Below are positions 16,752 through 59,436 of a stretch of 64,000 nucleotides of DNA, piece after piece (position 1 is the stretch's first letter; every line of letters starts with the position of its first letter). Source of the stretch: Eledone cirrhosa. Lineage: Eukaryota. Position numbers and translations under genes: made by a program. The DNA is taken from the NCBI GenBank assembly GCA_964016885.1, contig OZ024741.1, positions 41,788,001-41,852,000 on the forward strand, read 5' to 3'. The notes under the pieces were generated by a model, which saw only the letters and a list, made by a program, of their open reading frames with translations, ran no database searches and was not told where the DNA came from.

Positions 16752-19700
16752 ATCATTTATTTAGGACTGGATGTTGTGGTACCAACATAACTTTACAGAG
16801 AAAGGAGTGGTGTAGATGGGGGTGGGGGTAGGGGTAGTGGAATGGGGGTGTATTTTTGGTTAGGTGCCTACTGACTGTAGGTTTCGCTTTGTACTTAGGC
16901 AAGGCAGGTCTTCTGTATTACTGTGTAGCGCCAAAGATCTCGGTCCAGTGACATTGTCTTGGAGAGGTGTGTGAGGTCAGAATTTATCAAATCGTCCCAG
17001 GTTTTTCTGGGTCTGCCTACTCTGTAGCTTCCCTCTATTTTGATCGCCCTGCATTTTTTTATACAGCTGTCGTCTTTCATGCGCATCACATGACCATACC
17101 AACGTAGTCTTCTCTCGAGTAAACAGCATCTGATCCCTCTTATTCCTATTTTCTCAGTTCATTTATGCTTTGCCGTTCAATTATATTACTATTACACATC
17201 CAACAGAGCATGCATGCTTCGTTCCTCTCCAGTCTGCGCAGATCCTCTGCACACAATGCCCAAGTCTCACTGCCATGTCTCACATTGCTGTTCGTATACA
17301 GGCATCATACAGTCTAACTTTCATTTTTAAAGAGAAACCTTTAGCGGCTAATAGTGGTATAAGCTCTCTGAACTTTTTCCATCCTGTTCTGACTCTAGCT
17401 ACTGTACTTTCAGAGCACCTTCCACCACTGCTGATTTTGTCACCCAGTTAACGGAAGGTGTCCACTATTTCTATAGAATCATCTGGGCAATGGAAGGAGC
17501 TAGTATCCTGGGCACTTGCTACTACTTATTACACCTGAGCACCAGCCACATATAAAATCTATATTCTTAGTTAGCTTACCTGTGATCCCACTACATCTTT
17601 TTTATGAACCTATATTTTGCATTTGAGACATAAAATGGAGTTTCTGCCTACTCCTTTCAACACACTAAGCATGGCCATTTCCCAGAGGGGACCAGTGCCC
17701 TATTTTCCTTTCTACTTACTAGAACTTTAATTTTAGACAAGTTAATTTTAAGGCCTTTTGATTCTAGGCCATGCTTCCATGTTTGGAATTTCTTCTCTAG
17801 TTCAGCCATTGATTCAGCTATGAGCATTAGATCATCTGCGTATAGAAGTTCCCATGGGCAGCCAGTCTTGAACTCCTCTGTTATAGTCTGAGGGGCAATA
17901 ATAAATATGAGGGGGCTAAAGACAGAGCCCTGATGAACACCAACTTTTATGCTAAATTCTTCACGATATTCATTGTTAATTCTAACCTTGCTGACTGTTT
18001 CTTTATACATGGCTTGTATAGCTCTCATGAGCCATTCATCAACACCTAGTTTTCTAAGAGCCCACCAGATAATGGAGTAGGGGACTCTGTCAAAGGCTTT
18101 CTCCAAGTCAACAAAAGCTAAGTATAGGGGTTTACTTTTAGCTAGGTACTTCTCCTGTAGTTGTCGTACAATGAAAAGAGCATCTGTGGTACTTTTACCT
18201 GACACAAACCCAAACTGCATTTCATCTAGATCAATTCACTCTCTGATTAGTTGCACTATAGCTTTTTCTGTGACCTTCATGACCTGGTCAATTAATTTAA
18301 TGCCTCTATAGTTTCTCCTATCTAGGGCACCTCCTTTACCCTTGTAGCAGTTAATGATGATACTGCTACGCCAGTCGTTTGGTATGACCCCATTCTGTAT
18401 GACTTGGTTTACTATCCGGGTGACCATAGTGTGTCCCACTGATCCAGATGCTTTCAGCATTTCAGCAACTATCTCCGAAGGCCCAGCTGCTTTGCCTGTC
18501 TTCATATCTTTGATTGCCTTATTTATTATACTACCTTCAACTTGCACTGCTGGTCCCTCTATTGGATCGATTTGGGGCAGACTATCTATTTCCCACCTAT
18601 TCTCCTCATATAGTAGCCTCTCGTAGTGAAACTTCCAAGCTACCCTCTTATCAGTATCAGTGATGGCAAGTATACCATCATCATTACGGACACACTTCTC
18701 CCCGACAATATCACGGTTTTCCTTGACACATTGTCTAGCAATCCTGAACACCTCACGCTTTTGGTCATCGCGTTGTAGAACATGCTTGAACTTTTTTTTC
18801 TCTGCTTCCCTTCTTGCAAGGTACACTTGTCTCCTAGCTTCCCTCCTGGCCACATGATAGTGTTCTCTACTTCCCCCATCCCGCCATACTTTCCAAGCTT
18901 GCTTTTTGGCCTTGATTGACTCCTCCACCTTACTGTTCCACCACCATGTTACTCTCCTCCTGCCTATAGGTCTGCTCCAGCCACAGATTTCATCTGTCGC
19001 CTTCAGCAGGTTAACTTTCAGGAATTCCCACTGTTCCTCTATATTGTACGTCTCTAATTACTCTTCCTCACTGTCAAAAGCATCAAGTAGTATGCTTTTA
19101 AATTTGTTACTCGCTGTGGAGTCCTTTAATTTCCATATTCTTCATCTCAGGGTAGTCCTCCTCTGTTGTCGAGTACATCTCGTCCTGACTATGAGGTCAC
19201 TAACTATGAGGCTATGTTGGGAGGTGCATTCTTCGTGGGGGAGGGATTTACTGTTTACAACAGACACTCTGTCACGTCTTCTGGTAAGGATATAATCTAT
19301 CTGACTGGCGTGTTCCCCTGATCTATAGGTGATCAAGTGATTGTCTCGTTTTTTGAAATTTGTGTTACAGATAGTTGGGTTATTTGCGTCACAGAATTCC
19401 AGGATTCTGAAGCCTTCGTCATTTCTGGTACCAAACCTGTAGCGTCCATGGATTCCATCATAGCCGTCACAATGTTGTCAAACATGACCATTTAGGTTGC
19501 GCCAGCAATAATTATGTACTCACTGTCGGTTAGTTGGGAGGTAGTGGGCATTAGCGACTCATAGAATCTGTCTTTTATAACGCCAGGCATTTCAGATTGG
19601 GGTGCGTAAGCAGATATTATTGTCACAGTAGTTCTATTTAGGACAAGTCTTATTTTGATTATTCTGTCGTTCACTCTATTCACGTCAATTACCTAATCTA

Positions 19701-30707: not shown

Positions 30708-31866
30708 TCATCATCATCATCAACGTTTAACGTCCGTGTTCCACGCTTGCATGGGTTTGGACGGGGGTTTTCCCACTTGAGGCAAGAGTGATTGTCTTGC
30801 TCGCATAAGACTGTCTGGCAGGTTTTCTACAGTTGGATGCCCTTCCTAACACCAACCACATTTACAGTGTGGGTCTGGGAGGTTTTTACCGTGTTGCCTA
30901 CATGGCCACATTACAGCGTGGACTGTGTGTTTTTTTTGTCGTGACACCTACACGATCTCATTTGTTTCGGCCTGGATGGTGTGGCACCAACATAACTTTA
31001 CATAGAAGGGGGCGGTGTGGATGGGGTGGGGGTGGTGGAACGGGGGTGTATTTTGTTAGAGATGCCTACTGACTGTAGTAGGTTTTACTTTGTTTAGGTA
31101 AGGCGGGTCTTCTCTATTACTGAGTACCGCCAAAGATCTCGGTCCAGTGACATTGTCTTGGAGAGGTGTAAGTGTGTGAGGTCGGAGTTTATCAGCTCGT
31201 CCCAGGTTTTTCTAGGTCTGCCTATTCCGTGGCTACCGTCTATCTTTATTGCCCTGCACTTTGTTATACAGCTATCGTCTTTCATGCGCATCACGTGTCC
31301 ATACCAACGTAGTCTTCTCTCGAGTAAACAACATCTGATCCCCCTTATTTCTAATTTTTTCTTTAGTTTGTTTATGCTTTGCCGTTCACGTATATTACTA
31401 TTACACATCCAGCGGAGCATGCAAGCTTCGTTCCTCTCTAGTCTGCGTATATCCTCTGCACACAATGCCCAGGTCTCACTGCCATGCAACATTGCTGTTC
31501 GTATGCAGGCATCATACAACCTGCCTTTCGTTTTTAGGGAGAACCCTTTAGCGGCTAATAGTGGTATAAGCTCTCTGAACTTTTTCCATCCAGTTCTGAC
31601 TCTAGCTACTGTACTTTCAGAGCACCCTCCCCCACTGCTGATTTTGTCACCCAGGTAACGGAAGCTGTCCACTATTTCTATAGAGCGCTCTGCGCAGTTG
31701 AAAGAGCTAGTATTTGGTGGGCACTTGCTGCTACTTATTGCACGAGAGCACCGGCCACATGTGAAATCTATGTTCTTAGTTAGCTTACCTGTGATCCCAC
31801 TACATCTTTTATGCACCCATACTTTGCATTTCTGACACAAAATGGAGTTTCTACCTACGCCTTTCC

Positions 31867-31867
<1 letters not shown>
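30708..31867 (-). mobile_element. 5'-truncated young RTE LINE
   Basis: Open 248-aa ORF nearly identical to 42911-44035, full 3' UTR and (GAT)n tail; flanked by (TA)n on both sides. Confidence 0.95.
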
Positions 31868-31905
<38 letters not shown>

Positions 31906-32687
31906 TCCTTAAGTGATGGTATCACAGTAAAGTGCGGCTAATAAACTCTTTTATGTGATTTGTGTGAGGAAGGGCATCCAGTTATAGATATAATGTCAAA
32001 ACATGGAATGTGCAAGGGAGATGTCCTCTGAGCTGTCTACATGGGCAGCAACTCTTAATAAGAACTGACCAAATGAAAATATATAACACTGCTACATAAA
32101 ACCAATAAGAAAATAATTTTTTTTAACTGATGAAGCAGGTCAAGCAATTACGTAAGTTATCCTTTCAACCGAGTCTTGAAGTTCATTCTGTCCAGTATTC
32201 AGAGCACATTTATCAAATACTTCTGAGAAAGTCTCATTGAATGGTTTGTATAGAGAAGGAAATTGCACCAACTATTCATACAAATATCTGTAAATTCAAG
32301 TGTGAAAGAGCTGCCAATACAGAGACAGTACACCGACAGTACGCATATGCTGCCATGGAATAATAATAATATATATATATAACAAAAAATAATAATAACA
32401 GATAAGTAATTTTAATTTTCTCTCAAAACTATTGAACAGAAAAGGTGTATCTTGAGCAAAATATAAGATCCATTGTATTCTTGTTTACTTTCATTCCTGC
32501 CAACTAATATAGATGACTCCAACAAAAACCAGATGACCTTTGCAATGCTTATGTAGTACAAAGAATTATTTTAGAACAATAGACTAAACCAAGCAACACG
32601 TCAAAATACAAAATATCACACTCACACACCTGCCCTTCCCAAAAAGAAAGATTTACAAACAGAAACCTGAGATCCAAATATATTTCT

Positions 32688-42798: not shown

Positions 42799-44428
42799 TT
42801 AGCTTTTGTTGACTTGGAGAAAGCCTTCGACAGAGTCCTCCGTTCCATTATCTGGTGGGCTCTTAGAAAACTAGGTGTTGACGAATGGCTTGTGAGAGCT
42901 ATACAAGCCATTGTATAAAGAAACAGTCAGCAAGGTTAGAATTAACAACGAATATAGTGAAGAGTTTAGTGTAAAAGTTGGTGTTCATCAGGGCTCTGTT
43001 CTTAGCCCCCTACTATTTATTATTGCCCTTCAGGCTATAACAGTGGAGTTCAAGACCGGCTGCCCATGGGAACTCCTATACGCAGATGATCTAACGCTCA
43101 TAGCTGAATCAATGGCCGAGCTAGAGAAGAAATTCCAAACATGGAAGCACGGCCTAGAATCAAAAGGCCTTAAAATTAACCTGCCTAAGACTAAAGTTCT
43201 AGTTTGTAGGAAAGAAAATAAGGCGACAGTCCCTTCCGGGAAATGGCCATGCTCAGTGTGTAGGAAAGGCGTAGGTAGAAACTCCATTTTATGTCCCAAA
43301 TGCAAAGTATGGGTGCATAAAAGATGTAGTGGGATCACAGGTAAGCTAACTAAGAACATAGATTTTACATGTGGCCGGTGCTCTGGTGCAATAAGTAGCA
43401 GCAAGTGCCCACAAAATACTAGCTCTTTCAATTGCGCAGAGGGTTCTATAGAAATAGTGGACAGCTTCCGTTACCTGGGTGACAAAATCAGCAGTGGAGG
43501 AGGGTGCTCTGAAAGTACAGTAGCTAGAGTCAGAACTGGATGGAAAAAGTTCAGAGAGCTTATACCACTATTAGCCACTAAAGGGTTCTCCCTAAAAATG
43601 AAAGGCAGGTTGAATGATGCCTGCATACGAACAGCAATGTTGCATGGCAGTGAGACCTGGGCATTGTGTGCAGAGGATATACGCAGACTAGAGAGAAACG
43701 AAGCTTGCATGCTCCGCTGGATGTGTAATAGTAATATACGTGAACGGCGAAGCATAAGCGAACTAAAGAAAAAATTAGAAATAAGAGGGATCAGATGTTG
43801 TTTACTCGAGAGAAGGCTACGTTGGTATGGTCACGTGATGCGCATGAAGGACGATAGCTGTATAACAAAGTGCAGGGAAATAAAGATAGACGGTAGCTAC
43901 GGAGTAGGCAGACCCAGAAAAACCTGGGACGAGCTGATAAATTCCGACCTCACACACTTACACCTCTCCAAGACAATGTCACTGGACCGAGACCTTTGGC
44001 GGTACTCAGTAATAGAGAAGACCCGCCTTACCTAAATACATAGTAAAACCTACTACAGCCAGTAGGCATCTCTAACAAAATACACCCCCGTCCCACCACC
44101 CCCACCCCATCCACACCACCCCTTTCAATGTAAAGTTGTGTTGGTGCCGCGCCATCCAGGCCGAAACAAATGAGATCGTGTAGGTGTCACGTCAAAAAAC
44201 ACACAGTCCACGCTGTAATGTGGCCGTGTAGGCAACACGGTAAAAACCTCCCAGCCCCACACTGTAAATGTGGTTCGTGTTAGGAAGGGCATCCAGCTGT
44301 AGAAAACCCGCCAGACAGTCCTATGCGAGCAAGACAATCACTCTTGCCTCAAGTGGGACTACCCCCGTCCAAACCCATGCAAGCGTGGAACACGGACGTT
44401 AAACGTTGATGATGATGATGATGATGAA
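42799..44428 (+). mobile_element. 5'-truncated young RTE LINE (RT to 3' tail)
   Basis: AFVDLEKAFDRV, then after a frameshift a 374-aa ORF with GVHQGS, YADD, C4HC3 finger and GRPRKTW; full 3' UTR and (GAT)n tail. Confidence 0.95.
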
Positions 44429-55679: not shown

Positions 55680-58320
55680 ACAGCACCAACAACAACAACA
55701 ACACCATCTTCAACACCACTATTGCCTGGAGTAACAACAACATTGTCAACACCACTATTGCCTGGAGTAATAACAACATTGTTAACACCACTATTGCCAG
55801 TATTAACAGCACCACCACTATCACTACCATTGTCAACAGCACTATTGCCAGTAGCAACACTACCACTGCCATCTTTACCATCGTCAACACCACTATAATC
55901 AGTAGCAACACCACCATCACTACCATCGTCAACACCACTACCATCATCATCATCAACATCACTATAACCAGTAGCAACACCACCACCACCACCACTACTA
56001 TTAGTAGTACCAGCACCACAACCAACATCTACTATTAGTAGTACCAGCACTACAACCAACCAACCAACCACAACAACACTACCACCTGTACCAACACAAC
56101 CAACCACAACAACACTACCACCTGTGCCAACACAACCAACCAACCACAACAACACTACCACCTATACCAGCACAACCAACCAACCACAACAACACTACCA
56201 CCTCTACCAGCACAACCAACCAACCACAACAACACTACCACCTGTACCAGCACAACCAACCAACCACAACAACACTACCACCTGTACCAGCACAACCAAC
56301 CAACCACAACAACACTACCACCTGTAACAGCACAACCAACCACAACAACACTACCACCTGTACCAGCACAACCAGCCAACCACAACAACACTACCACCTG
56401 TACCAGCACAACCAACCAACCACAACAACACTACCACCTATACCAGCACAACCAACCAACCACAACAACACTACCACCTGTACCAGCACAACCAACCAAC
56501 CACAACAACACTACCACCTGTACCAGCACAACCAACCAACCACAACACTACCACCTGTACCAGCACAACCAACCAACCACTACAACACTACCACCTGTAC
56601 CAGCACAACCAGCCAACCACAACAACACTACCACCTGTACCAGCACAACGAACTACTACAACACTACCACCTGTACCAGCACAACCAACTGCTACAACAC
56701 TACCACCTGTACCAGCACAACCAACCACTACAACACTACCACCTGTACCAGCACAACCAACCAACCACAACACTACCACCTGTAACAGCACAACCAACCA
56801 ACCACAACAACACTACCACCTGTACCAGCACAACCAACCAACCACAACACTACCACCTGTACCAGCACAACCAACCACAACACTACCACCTGTACCAGCA
56901 CAACCAACCAACCACAACACTACCACCTGTACCAGCACAACCAACCAACCACAACAACACTACCACCTGTACCAGCACAACCAACTACTACAACACTACC
57001 ACCTGTACCAGCACAACCAACCAACCACAACACTACCACCTGTACCAGCACAACCAACCAACCACTACAACACTACCACCTGTACCAGCACAACCAACCA
57101 CAACAACACTACCACCTGTAACAGCACAACCAACCACAACACTACCACCTGTACCAGCACAACCAACCACAACACTACCACCTGTACCAGCACAACCAAC
57201 TACTACAACACTACCACCTGTACCAGCACAACCAACCAACCACAACAACACTACCACCTGTACCAGCACAACCAACCAACTACAACACTACCACCTGTAC
57301 CAGCACAACCAACCAACCACAACACTACCACCTGTACCAGCACAACCAACCAACCACAACACTACCACCTGTACCAGCACAACCAACCAACCACAACAAC
57401 ACTACCACCTGTACCAGCACAACCAACCAACCACAACAACACTACCACCTCTACCAGCACAACCAACTACTACAACACTACCACCTGTACCAGCACAACC
57501 AACCAACCACAACACTACCACCTGTACCAGCACAACCAACTAACCACAACACTACCACCTGTACCAGCACAACCAACCAACCACAACACTACCACCTGTA
57601 CCAGCACAACCAACCAACCAACCACTACCACCTGTACCAGCACAACCAACCACAACACTACCACCTGTACCAGCACAACCAACTACTACAACACTACCAC
57701 CTGTACCAGCACAACCAACTACTACAACACTACCACCTGTACCAGCACAACCAACCAACCACAACACTACCACCTGTACCAGCACAACCAACTACTACAA
57801 CACTACCACCTGTACCAGCACAACCAACCAACCACAACAACACTACCACCTGTACCAGCACAACCAACCAACTACAACACTACCACCTGTACCAGCACAA
57901 CCAACCAACCACAACACTACCACCTGTACCAGCACAACCAACCAACCACAACACTACCACCTGTACCAGCACAACCAACCAACCACAACAACACTACCAC
58001 CTGTACCAGCACAACCAACTACTACAACACTACCACCTGTACCAGCACAACCAACCAACCACAACACTACCACCTGTACCACCACAACAACACTGTCACC
58101 TGTATCAGTACCACCACTAACACTACCTGCCAAACAACAGCAGCAGTAACAGCATCACCACTACTATCATTACCTGCACCATCACAACTACTTGTACCAG
58201 CACAACCATCACCACCAACAACACAACCACCACTAACACTACCTACACCAACACCACTTGCACCAGCACCACCTGTACCTTCACCACCACCACCACTGGC
58301 TGTACTAGAACCAACACTAT
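55680..58320. repeat. 2.6-kb AC-rich minisatellite (33-40-bp variable unit) with trinucleotide-like flanks
   Basis: Unit accacctgtaccagcacaacc(aacc)n-ac(aac)n-act repeated dozens of times. Confidence 0.95.
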
Positions 58321-58447
58321 TATGACTAGCAAAAACAATCATCACCAGTTTTATTTTAATTGACTTAACAGACTAGTAGTGGCTTGCATTTGAAAGAAAT
58401 CACACACAGTCTCTCTCTCACTCTCACACTTACACTTACACACACAC

Positions 58448-58495
<48 letters not shown>

Positions 58496-58811
58496 TCTCT
58501 CTCTCTCTCTCACAAATACACACAGTCTCTCATACAAACAGATATAAAACTGACCCAGATAACATTTTACAATTCTATGACCAGAGAGATTTCCTAATCT
58601 CTCTAGATCTTCTGCTTGTGTTAAATGTTAACTACAACTACAATCAACCTAAAACTGGCTAAGTGCTACCTACTATTGTTCTTTCACCATCTAACTATCA
58701 CCACTATTGCAACTAATCCCACCACCCACTCCTCTCATATATATATATGTCCCAAGGCTCTGATACCATCAGCACTATAAACACAGAGCTGGCATATCTA
58801 AGAACTGACTA

Positions 58812-58867
58812 ACTGCCTGATGAGGTCATAGCCATTCAATGGCTATCATCGAAATATATATAGCAGT
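58812..58867 (+). ncRNA. Minimal type-I hammerhead ribozyme with intact core
   Basis: Stem I actgc/gcagt; CTGATGA 58817-23; stem II ggtcatagcca/tggctatcatc closed by G-C; GAAA 58851-54; palindromic TATATA; UH = TA with predicted cut after 58862. Confidence 0.75.
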
Positions 58868-58909
58868 AAATAAAGGATTATGAGTTCATGCAATTGACTT
58901 ATGTTTCGT

Positions 58910-58954
<45 letters not shown>

Positions 58955-59116
58955 AGCAAATTATAAACGTAAACATGTAAGTATGTTTTTGAAACGGTGC
59001 GCGAGTTTGAAATTAGAAATTAGAAATTATAAGCTTTCACCGTATTTTAGACTAAAGAAATTTCTAGCCTGATCGTGGGGTTTACAACCCTCGGAGAAAT
59101 GGAAAAAGATGAGTGT

Positions 59117-59187
59117 TGCCGTACATGGGAGTCGAACCCACATCTTTGGTTATCCAGACCACTGTGCTTCCATTACACCAATACACA
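59117..59187 (-). ncRNA. tRNA-like Pol III unit (left arm of the foldback)
   Basis: Mirror copy of 59243-59313 with one D-loop substitution. Confidence 0.6.
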
Positions 59188-59242
59188 TTTATCATTCACT
59201 TACTAAATTCATAGTTTCTAATTCGAATGGAAGGAGACGGGA

Positions 59243-59313
59243 TGTGTATTGGTGTAATGGTAGCACAGTGGTCTGGATAACCAAAGATGTGGGTTCGACT
59301 CCCATGTACGGCA
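59243..59313 (+). ncRNA. tRNA-like Pol III unit (right arm); probably not a functional tRNA
   Basis: A-box tggtgtaatgg, D-stem gtgt/gcac, anticodon arm tggt-ctggata-acca, T-arm gtggg-ttcgact-cccat, bulged acceptor stem, and T5 at 59323-27. Confidence 0.6.
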
Positions 59314-59396
59314 ACACTCATCTTTTTCCATTTCTCCGAGGGTTATAAACCCCACTATCAGGCTAGAAATTTCTTTAGTCTAAAATACGGTGAAAG

Positions 59397-59436
<40 letters not shown>

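What the first reader, a model, noticed from the sequence alone, without database searches (positions are those of the whole stretch)
59028..59402. Foldback element made of two back-to-back tRNA-like Pol III genes
Seen: 161-bp arms (3 mismatches) around a 53-bp spacer. Each arm has a near-complete cloverleaf with A and B boxes pointing outward, a T5 terminator 10 nt downstream, then about 75 bp ending in aagctta-TA. The loop would read GGA, but position 37 is T and there is no long variable arm, so it is unlikely to be a real tRNA-Ser. Inference: a recent non-autonomous element, neither a standard SINE (no LINE tail) nor a standard MITE (TIRs are Pol III genes). It could make ~85-nt tRNA-like RNAs in both directions, act as a TFIIIC insulator, or give a 161-bp dsRNA for ADAR/Dicer on read-through.
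Basis: partly seen in the sequence, partly recalled or inferred. Interest (0 to 1): 0.8.

Follow-up and report, generated by a model that had tools for sequence, protein, structure and literature searches.

The report
tRNA-headed passenger of Penelope retroelements
This palindrome is one of more than a thousand copies of a short, tRNA-headed mobile element whose insertions have the lopsided head-to-head shape of Penelope-like retroelements, so it is likely a SINE-like passenger copied by Penelope enzymes instead of by LINEs.

Summary
The palindrome is real (161-bp arms, 3 mismatches, 53-bp spacer, tRNA-like heads with A/B boxes and T5), but it is not the mobile unit. The unit is a ~290-nt non-coding monomer (leader, tRNA-like head, body, tail); 1,200-2,550 exact motif matches, several subfamilies. 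The window insertion spans 58953-59402: a 5'-truncated arm with a 75-nt tail, head-to-head with a tail-less arm, inside (TA)n. In a position-ordered sample, 22 of 27 insertions are head-to-head, 21 of these with one long and one short outer end; inner ends are variable and partial tandems are common. An ordinary SINE of this genome is inverted in 2 of 70 cases. An abundant autonomous Penelope-like element (PLE) here shows the same anatomy. Best reading: a non-autonomous PLE passenger with a tRNA-derived, likely Pol III promoter and no hammerhead; the palindrome would be the by-product of reverse transcription primed on both target strands. Not shown: the partner PLE (not found), any transcript, Pol III use. 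Not a MITE, not a working tRNA. Closest precedents: retrozymes/Sm-alpha (have hammerheads), MRC1, TRIMp3. New variant of a known kind.

The parts
58953..59402 (.). Whole insertion: two 5'-truncated arms of the ~290-nt monomer, head-to-head, in a (TA)n array
   Evidence: L001: -[55-290], +[1-215] against natural monomer L021:1928-2217
58953..59188 (-). Long arm, monomer positions 55-290
   Evidence: 98% identity
58953..59027 (-).
   Evidence: conserved tail motif counted
59188..59402 (+). Short arm, monomer positions 1-215
   Evidence: 98% identity
59189..59241 (+).
59241..59313 (+). tRNA-like head, right arm; D arm matches this genome's tRNA-Gln genes
59118..59188 (-). tRNA-like head, left arm
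59250..59260 (+). A box, right arm (left arm: 59170-59180, minus strand)
   Evidence: sequence
59292..59302 (+). B box, right arm (left arm: 59128-59138, minus strand)
   Evidence: sequence
59323..59327 (+). T5 followed by C, a possibly leaky Pol III terminator (left arm: 59103-59107, minus strand)
   Evidence: context effect as cited in PMC4758252
58913..58952 (.). (TA)n target array, left
59400..59431 (.). (TA)n target array, right

Best explanation
The element is a short non-coding retroposon with a tRNA-derived head that is likely copied and inserted by the reverse transcriptase and GIY-YIG endonuclease of a Penelope-like element (PLE), and the palindrome is likely the by-product of one such insertion. 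Shown: monomer of about 290 nt, variable 5' truncation, exact head-to-tail tandems, head-to-head arms with one long and one short outer end, (TA)n targets, both arms sharing rare variants. Inferred steps: (1) Pol III starts at the tRNA-like head of a tandem source copy and reads through the T5-C signal, giving an RNA that holds the tail internally and may span 2-3 monomers; (2) a PLE protein binds the tail region and nicks both strands of a (TA)n array; (3) each nick primes reverse transcription at one of two internal sites (about positions 215-231 and 289-290); (4) the two cDNAs stop early and are joined at their inner ends, often at a local palindrome, giving the inverted pair. PLE mobilisation alone I put at about 0.87; with the head as the working Pol III promoter about 0.62.
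For: Architecture: 22 of 27 distinct insertions among the first 30 tail-motif matches by position are head-to-head, 21 of 22 with one long and one short end; 5 of 27 single-armed; (TA)n on both sides in 23 of 27 (L177 scored by eye). Young subfamily: 30 of 37 head-to-head insertions long+short, 6 long+other, 1 short+short. Control SINE: 2 of 70 inverted. Autonomous PLE in the same genome (L104, 1257 codons, RT plus C-terminal Cys motif and GIY-YIG-like domain, 40,514 candidates): 18 long, 11 short, 1 running on into the ORF among 30 3' ends, about 57 nt apart, into (TA)n; 6 of 7 inverted insertions resolved as long+short. These are the PLE features listed in PMC8557442; a purified PLE nicks and extends both strands and starts RT at two internal sites that define the tail (PMC11167929). 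Arms of one insertion share 9 of 108 rare variants against 28 of 8,853 between insertions, and sharing is often specific to one monomer of a tandem, as expected of a linear multimeric template. Head: A box, B box and T5 persist across subfamilies 75-86% alike while the anticodon loop varies.
Against: No autonomous PLE sharing 3' sequence with the monomer was found in 786 kb of loci and window; only a small part of the genome was examined. No hammerhead core on either strand, unlike canonical PLE pLTRs. A T5 sits upstream of both priming sites in every monomer, and L021 needs a template passing at least two of them. Inner ends do not pile up at the expected Pol III start; many lie at positions 93-135. 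B-box conservation in four of the six aligned monomers is by construction (found with a B-box pattern); within the young subfamily the boxes are no better conserved than the rest. Shared arm variants could also come from gene conversion. The window's own junction was not seen in four independent runs.
Confidence: 0.62

Rival explanations
1. PLE-mobilised as above, but the tRNA-like head is not the promoter of the template: the RNA comes from Pol II read-through (host introns or a neighbouring pLTR), and the head is a passenger or a processing signal (RNase P/Z cut) standing in for the hammerhead.
For: T5 in each monomer; templates of 2.5 monomers (L021); many copies extend 5' of the head into the leader and previous tail (8 of 27 cross the tandem junction); older subfamilies have a fully paired acceptor stem (alignment).
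Against: A box, B box and T5 kept across all subfamilies while the anticodon loop drifts; the young, most successful subfamily has a broken acceptor stem, poor for RNase P; T5-C is reported as leaky and occurs inside mollusc SINEs (PMC4758252).
Confidence: 0.25
2. An ordinary LINE-mobilised SINE whose inversions come from twin priming or from a microsatellite-targeting LINE.
For: tRNA head with A/B boxes; 5' truncation; RT fragments of LINEs are common in the window.
Against: Twin priming (recalled) gives non-overlapping inverted pieces, here both arms repeat the same 3' sequence; no simple-repeat or poly(A) tail; exact head-to-tail tandems and a leader 5' of the head; control SINE inverted in only 2 of 70.
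Confidence: 0.07
3. A MITE or foldback DNA transposon whose TIRs carry tRNA-like genes.
For: Long inverted arms, AT-rich targets, no ORF.
Against: Outer ends unequal in 21 of 22; arm length and junction differ at each locus; single arms and tandems; polarity (fixed 3', variable 5') is that of reverse transcription.
Confidence: 0.04
4. Assembly fold-back artefact.
For: The window's junction has zero depth in X1, X2, X5, X16.
Against: Arms differ at 3 private sites and in both inner and outer length; strand-switch joints at six position pairs and the 290-to-1 tandem joint occur in raw reads of X15, and many other head-to-head junctions in contigs of X1/X2.
Confidence: 0.02

Closest known systems
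Penelope-like elements (Neptune, Naiad, Poseidon) and non-autonomous PLEs such as MRC1 (PMC8557442, passages and section 7; PMC11167929, parts 1-2 of 4; PMC3846280, passages)
   Same: 5' truncation, partial tandems, inverted 5'-truncated copy, tail at one end, (TA)n targets; multicopy head-to-tail non-autonomous forms
   Different: No ORF, no hammerhead, tRNA-derived head; tail 59-75 nt rather than 30-40 (about 57 in the autonomous PLE of this genome); no 3' similarity to a partner found
Non-LTR retrozymes, in particular Schistosoma Sm-alpha (PMC7229834, PMC6765202, PMC2770079, passages; bioRxiv 10.64898/2026.07.22.740005, part 1 of 5 and passages)
   Same: Non-coding monomer of 170-400 nt in tandems, proposed PLE dependence; Sm-alpha is described as Pol III-transcribed, tRNA-Gln-derived, with the upstream copy transcribing the next
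   Different: Defining type I hammerhead is absent here; here the PLE insertion signature (inverted arm plus tail) is seen directly; no sequence comparison with Sm-alpha was made
tRNA-derived SINEs (mollusc MESC, Vhc, Snail, CORE; PMC4758252, passages)
   Same: tRNA head with A/B boxes, internal T4-T5 followed by C
   Different: No LINE-derived or simple-repeat 3' tail, leader 5' of the head, tandem and inverted insertions
TRIMp3: Cassandra, Helenus, Ajax (PMC10886601, passages)
   Same: Small-RNA-derived Pol III promoter captured by a non-autonomous element that is not a SINE
   Different: Those depend on LTR retrotransposons (LTRs, PBS, PPT, 4-5 bp TSD); this one has PLE anatomy

Membership tests
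Non-autonomous Penelope-like element | Variable 5' truncation with fixed 3' ends | tested here: met
Non-autonomous Penelope-like element | Partial tandem (pLTR-like) arrangement | tested here: met
   exact 290-to-1 junctions, 8 of 27 insertions cross it; also in raw reads
Non-autonomous Penelope-like element | Adjacent inverted 5'-truncated copy | tested here: met
   22 of 27; control SINE 2 of 70
Non-autonomous Penelope-like element | Tail extension on one end only | tested here: met
   21 of 22; 30 of 37
Non-autonomous Penelope-like element | Microsatellite/AT-rich target | tested here: met
   (TA)n on both sides in 23 of 27, on one side in all 27
Non-autonomous Penelope-like element | 3' sequence shared with an autonomous PLE | tested here: inconclusive
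   none in 786 kb searched; genome-wide search is swamped by the family's own copies
Non-LTR retrozyme | Type I hammerhead in each monomer | tested here: not met
   no CTGANGA core on either strand of young or old dimers; no Rfam ribozyme hit
Non-LTR retrozyme | Tandem monomer of 170-400 nt | tested here: met
   290 nt young, about 274 nt old
Non-LTR retrozyme | Abundant circular RNA | not testable with these tools
   no RNA holder listed
SINE (tRNA-derived) | tRNA-derived head with A and B boxes | tested here: met
SINE (tRNA-derived) | Element starts at the head and ends in a LINE-derived or simple-repeat tail | tested here: not met
   54-nt leader precedes the head; two internal end points; tandems
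SINE (tRNA-derived) | Transcribed by Pol III | not testable with these tools
   no RNA or ChIP data
MITE / foldback DNA transposon | Fixed, symmetric terminal inverted repeats | tested here: not met
   unequal outer ends, variable arms
MITE / foldback DNA transposon | Fixed TSD | tested here: inconclusive
   flanks are TA arrays; no empty site found
tRNA-Ser gene | Purine 37, long variable arm, stable anticodon | tested here: not met
   T37, short variable region; loop differs between subfamilies
TRIMp3 | Two direct LTRs around an internal part with PBS and PPT | tested here: not met
   monomers abut with no internal region; PBS/PPT not searched separately

The most novel reading that the evidence does not exclude
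This is the Penelope counterpart of a SINE: a ribozyme-free, tRNA-promoter parasite of PLEs that has renewed itself through at least five subfamilies, forming a third group of small-RNA-derived passengers beside SINEs (LINE) and TRIMp3 (LTR); many 'unclassified SINEs' and MITE-like palindromes in such genomes would be of this kind, and the 290-nt RNA would be a minimal natural substrate for dissecting two-strand PLE priming.
Probability: 0.45. Interest if true: 0.7.

Novelty: new variant of a known kind. Interest (0 to 1): 0.5.

Why it matters
PLE integration is poorly understood; the in vitro work so far defines two RT start sites but not how tandem and inverted structures arise. A young 290-nt passenger with over a thousand copies gives a short template and a large natural sample of junctions, ends and shared variants to test the two-priming model against self-priming. 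It also shows that tRNA-headed repeats need not be LINE-dependent SINEs, which bears on repeat annotation, and that most insertions create a ready-made long hairpin, a likely source of dsRNA and editing substrates where they are transcribed.

Tried and rejected
Partner search: BLAST of positions 140-290 and profile searches (nhmmer) over 509 kb and then 786 kb found only further subfamilies; the Neptune-like family of L104 has no 3' similarity; L088 looked like a subfamily with another tail but is a chimera with a separate hammerhead-bearing family. A protein search with the RT core returned only same-clade relatives and was not followed; Naiads are reported as long inactive in cephalopods. 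No RNA holder listed, so expression is untested. One search had a miscounted gap and a wrong spacer; both were repeated. The Rfam tRNA search of the genome sampled only Thr/Ile/Ala-like genes. Pfam gave no hit for the PLE proteins; PDB gave only a weak GIY-YIG match, E 0.52. Simple fold-back of one cDNA is unlikely for the window copy, since the short arm reaches further 5' and the long arm further 3'. A circular monomer template is disfavoured by monomer-specific shared variants but not excluded. A conserved hairpin in the tail is predicted for the old but not the young subfamily, so it is called a motif. miRNA hits in Rfam are far below their gathering scores. Earlier-findings look-ups returned nothing. 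Rows dropped before counts: L161, L171, L174 as duplicates; L060 and L062 as junction alignment artefacts.

Full report
Observation. The inverted repeat is as described: arms 59028-59188 and 59242-59402, 161 nt, three mismatches, 53 nt apart. ARAGORN calls tRNA-Ser(gga) on both arms and Rfam scores them 38.1 and 35.2 bits against a cut-off of 29. A box, B box, T5 and T37 are in the sequence. The host is a 3.0-Gb genome in 1,796 contigs; its repeats look cephalopod-like to me (recalled, not tested).

The unit. The genome search gave 174 matches from 40 of 1,151 candidates. Mapping 23 loci showed a 290-nt monomer: 54-nt leader, tRNA-like head, T5, body, and a 75-nt tail, with exact head-to-tail junctions. 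The window insertion is positions 55-290 on the minus strand (58953-59188) joined head-to-head to positions 1-215 on the plus strand (59188-59402), between two TA arrays. Exact patterns give 2,551 matches for the tail motif of several subfamilies, 1,313 for the head and 1,212 for the young tail; reversed controls 0. These count arms and tandem units, not insertions.

Architecture. The first 30 tail-motif matches by position are 27 distinct insertions after removing three duplicates; two pairs (L159/L162, L160/L163) are near-identical and may not be independent. Of the 27, 22 are head-to-head and 5 single-armed; 21 of the 22 have one long end (289-290 young, 270-274 old numbering) and one short end (215-237); 8 cross the tandem junction; (TA)n flanks both sides in 23. 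Among 59 young insertions gathered by several searches, some biased toward palindromes, 37 are head-to-head: 30 long+short, 6 long+other, 1 short+short. Inner ends vary widely. An ordinary tRNA-headed SINE from the same loci is inverted in 2 of 70 copies. All 30 head-pattern loci belong to the same family; natural monomers define at least five subfamilies, and L211 and L034 are still more diverged.

Comparison with a PLE of the same genome. A neighbouring ORF led to a young family with 40,514 candidates and a 1,257-codon frame with DKG-like, YVDD, Cys and GIY-YIG/CCHH-like motifs. These fit the Neptune/Nematis description in PMC8557442; Pfam gave no hit and PDB only a weak GIY-YIG match, so the clade name is inferred. 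Its 3' ends fall at two sites about 57 nt apart: 18 long, 11 short, 1 continuing into the ORF among 30, nearly all into (TA)n. Six of seven inverted insertions have one long and one short end, the seventh was not resolved, and one shows partial tandem plus inversion. This is the same anatomy as the tRNA-headed family. PMC8557442 (passages) lists 5' truncation, partial tandems, an inverted 5'-truncated copy, a one-sided tail and (TA)n bias as PLE features. PMC11167929 (parts 1-2 of 4) shows a PLE protein cutting and extending both strands and starting RT at two internal RNA sites that define the tail.

Template. The two arms of one insertion share 9 of 108 rare variants (8 of 35 insertions), against 28 of 8,853 between insertions. 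In L021, L020 and L017 shared variants are confined to one monomer of a tandem, which fits a linear multimeric RNA from a tandem source better than a circle; L014 is ambiguous and gene conversion is not excluded. The three arm mismatches in the window are private (1 of 45, 96 and 99 pieces) and young copies differ by 2.1% from the column majority, so the insertion is recent.

The head. Its D arm matches the genome's tRNA-Gln genes at 17 of 18 nt, 18 of 18 in L211; the rest is about 60-67% alike, and the search was built on the D arm, so the Gln origin is tentative. The anticodon loop differs between subfamilies, so it is not a working tRNA. Boxes and T5 persist, but B-box identity in four aligned monomers is by construction and within the young subfamily the boxes are not better conserved than other parts. 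T5 lies upstream of both end points, so a Pol III template must read through it; T5 followed by C is described as leaky and common inside mollusc SINEs (PMC4758252, passages). No hammerhead core is present.

Independent reads. Raw reads of X15 hold strand-switch joints at six position pairs (3-7 reads each) and the tandem joint (6 reads); contigs of X1 and X4 hold the tandem joint. Library chimeras could mimic strand switches. The window's own junction had zero depth in X1, X2, X5 and X16, while eleven other junctions were seen in contigs; this copy may be polymorphic, or the runs may be another species. No RNA run was listed.

What is missing. No partner PLE with matching 3' sequence was found in 786 kb. 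Transcription, Pol III use, insulator activity and dsRNA are untested. A strand excess of tail matches (860 against 352) hints at a long tandem array that I did not locate.

Known relatives and novelty. Non-autonomous PLEs are known (MRC1 in PMC8557442; short non-autonomous Penelope elements in PMC6685494, passage). Animal retrozymes are tandem, hammerhead-bearing and argued to be PLE passengers (PMC7229834, passages; bioRxiv 10.64898/2026.07.22.740005, part 1 of 5 and passages, with no mention of tRNA). Sm-alpha is described as tRNA-Gln-derived, Pol III-transcribed, tandem and hammerhead-bearing (PMC6765202, PMC2770079, passages), and is the closest precedent. TRIMp3 elements are the LTR analogue (PMC10886601, passages). 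Ten searches of the held library (listings, with passages read from 12 papers) showed no ribozyme-free tRNA-headed element with PLE insertion anatomy; the library lacks most subscription journals, Repbase and Dfam were not available, and supplements were not read, so the family may already sit in a repeat library as an unclassified SINE (PMC13282606, passages, lists many).

Verdict. Real and recent; works like a non-autonomous PLE; not a MITE, retrozyme, standard SINE or tRNA gene by the tests above. New variant of a known kind, interest 0.5.

Noticed in passing
window 58750-58912: 3' fragment of a different, young PLE-like family in the same TA array, with a minimal type I hammerhead (58812-58867). 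41 matches at 97-100% from 40 of 98 candidates; other copies carry a ~90-nt tail and inverted arms.
   Followed up: partly
L104:2721-6491 (G000:C3): Very abundant young Neptune-like PLE, 1,257-codon frame with an Asn/Thr-rich insert, hammerhead in the pLTR, tail coinciding with the ORF start.
   Followed up: partly
L106-L130: Another PLE-like family (1,956 candidates) with a long-stem-II hammerhead read by eye, a ~79-nt tail and frequent inverted arms; L088 is a chimera of it with the tRNA-headed family.
   Followed up: partly
G000, not located: Strand excess of tail matches (352 vs 860; 1,058 vs 1,493) but not of head matches (654 vs 659) suggests a long one-strand tandem array, possibly a source locus or satellite.
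   Followed up: no
L133-L146: A dispersed family of tRNA-like genes with near-identical body and varying anticodons (GGC, GAC, AGC, GTC, GGT), scoring 40-71 bits in Rfam; likely another SINE head.
   Followed up: no
window 56000-58350: Long C/A-rich minisatellite of 33-40-nt units.
   Followed up: no
window 17660-18235, 31097-31921, 42896-44032: RT and PHD-finger fragments of LINE-type retrotransposons.
   Followed up: no
L021 end region, L079, L109, L034: A short GTGAAAGC motif recurs 5-60 nt upstream of the short end in the young subfamily and in two or three PLE-like families; not conserved in the old subfamily, may be chance.
   Followed up: no
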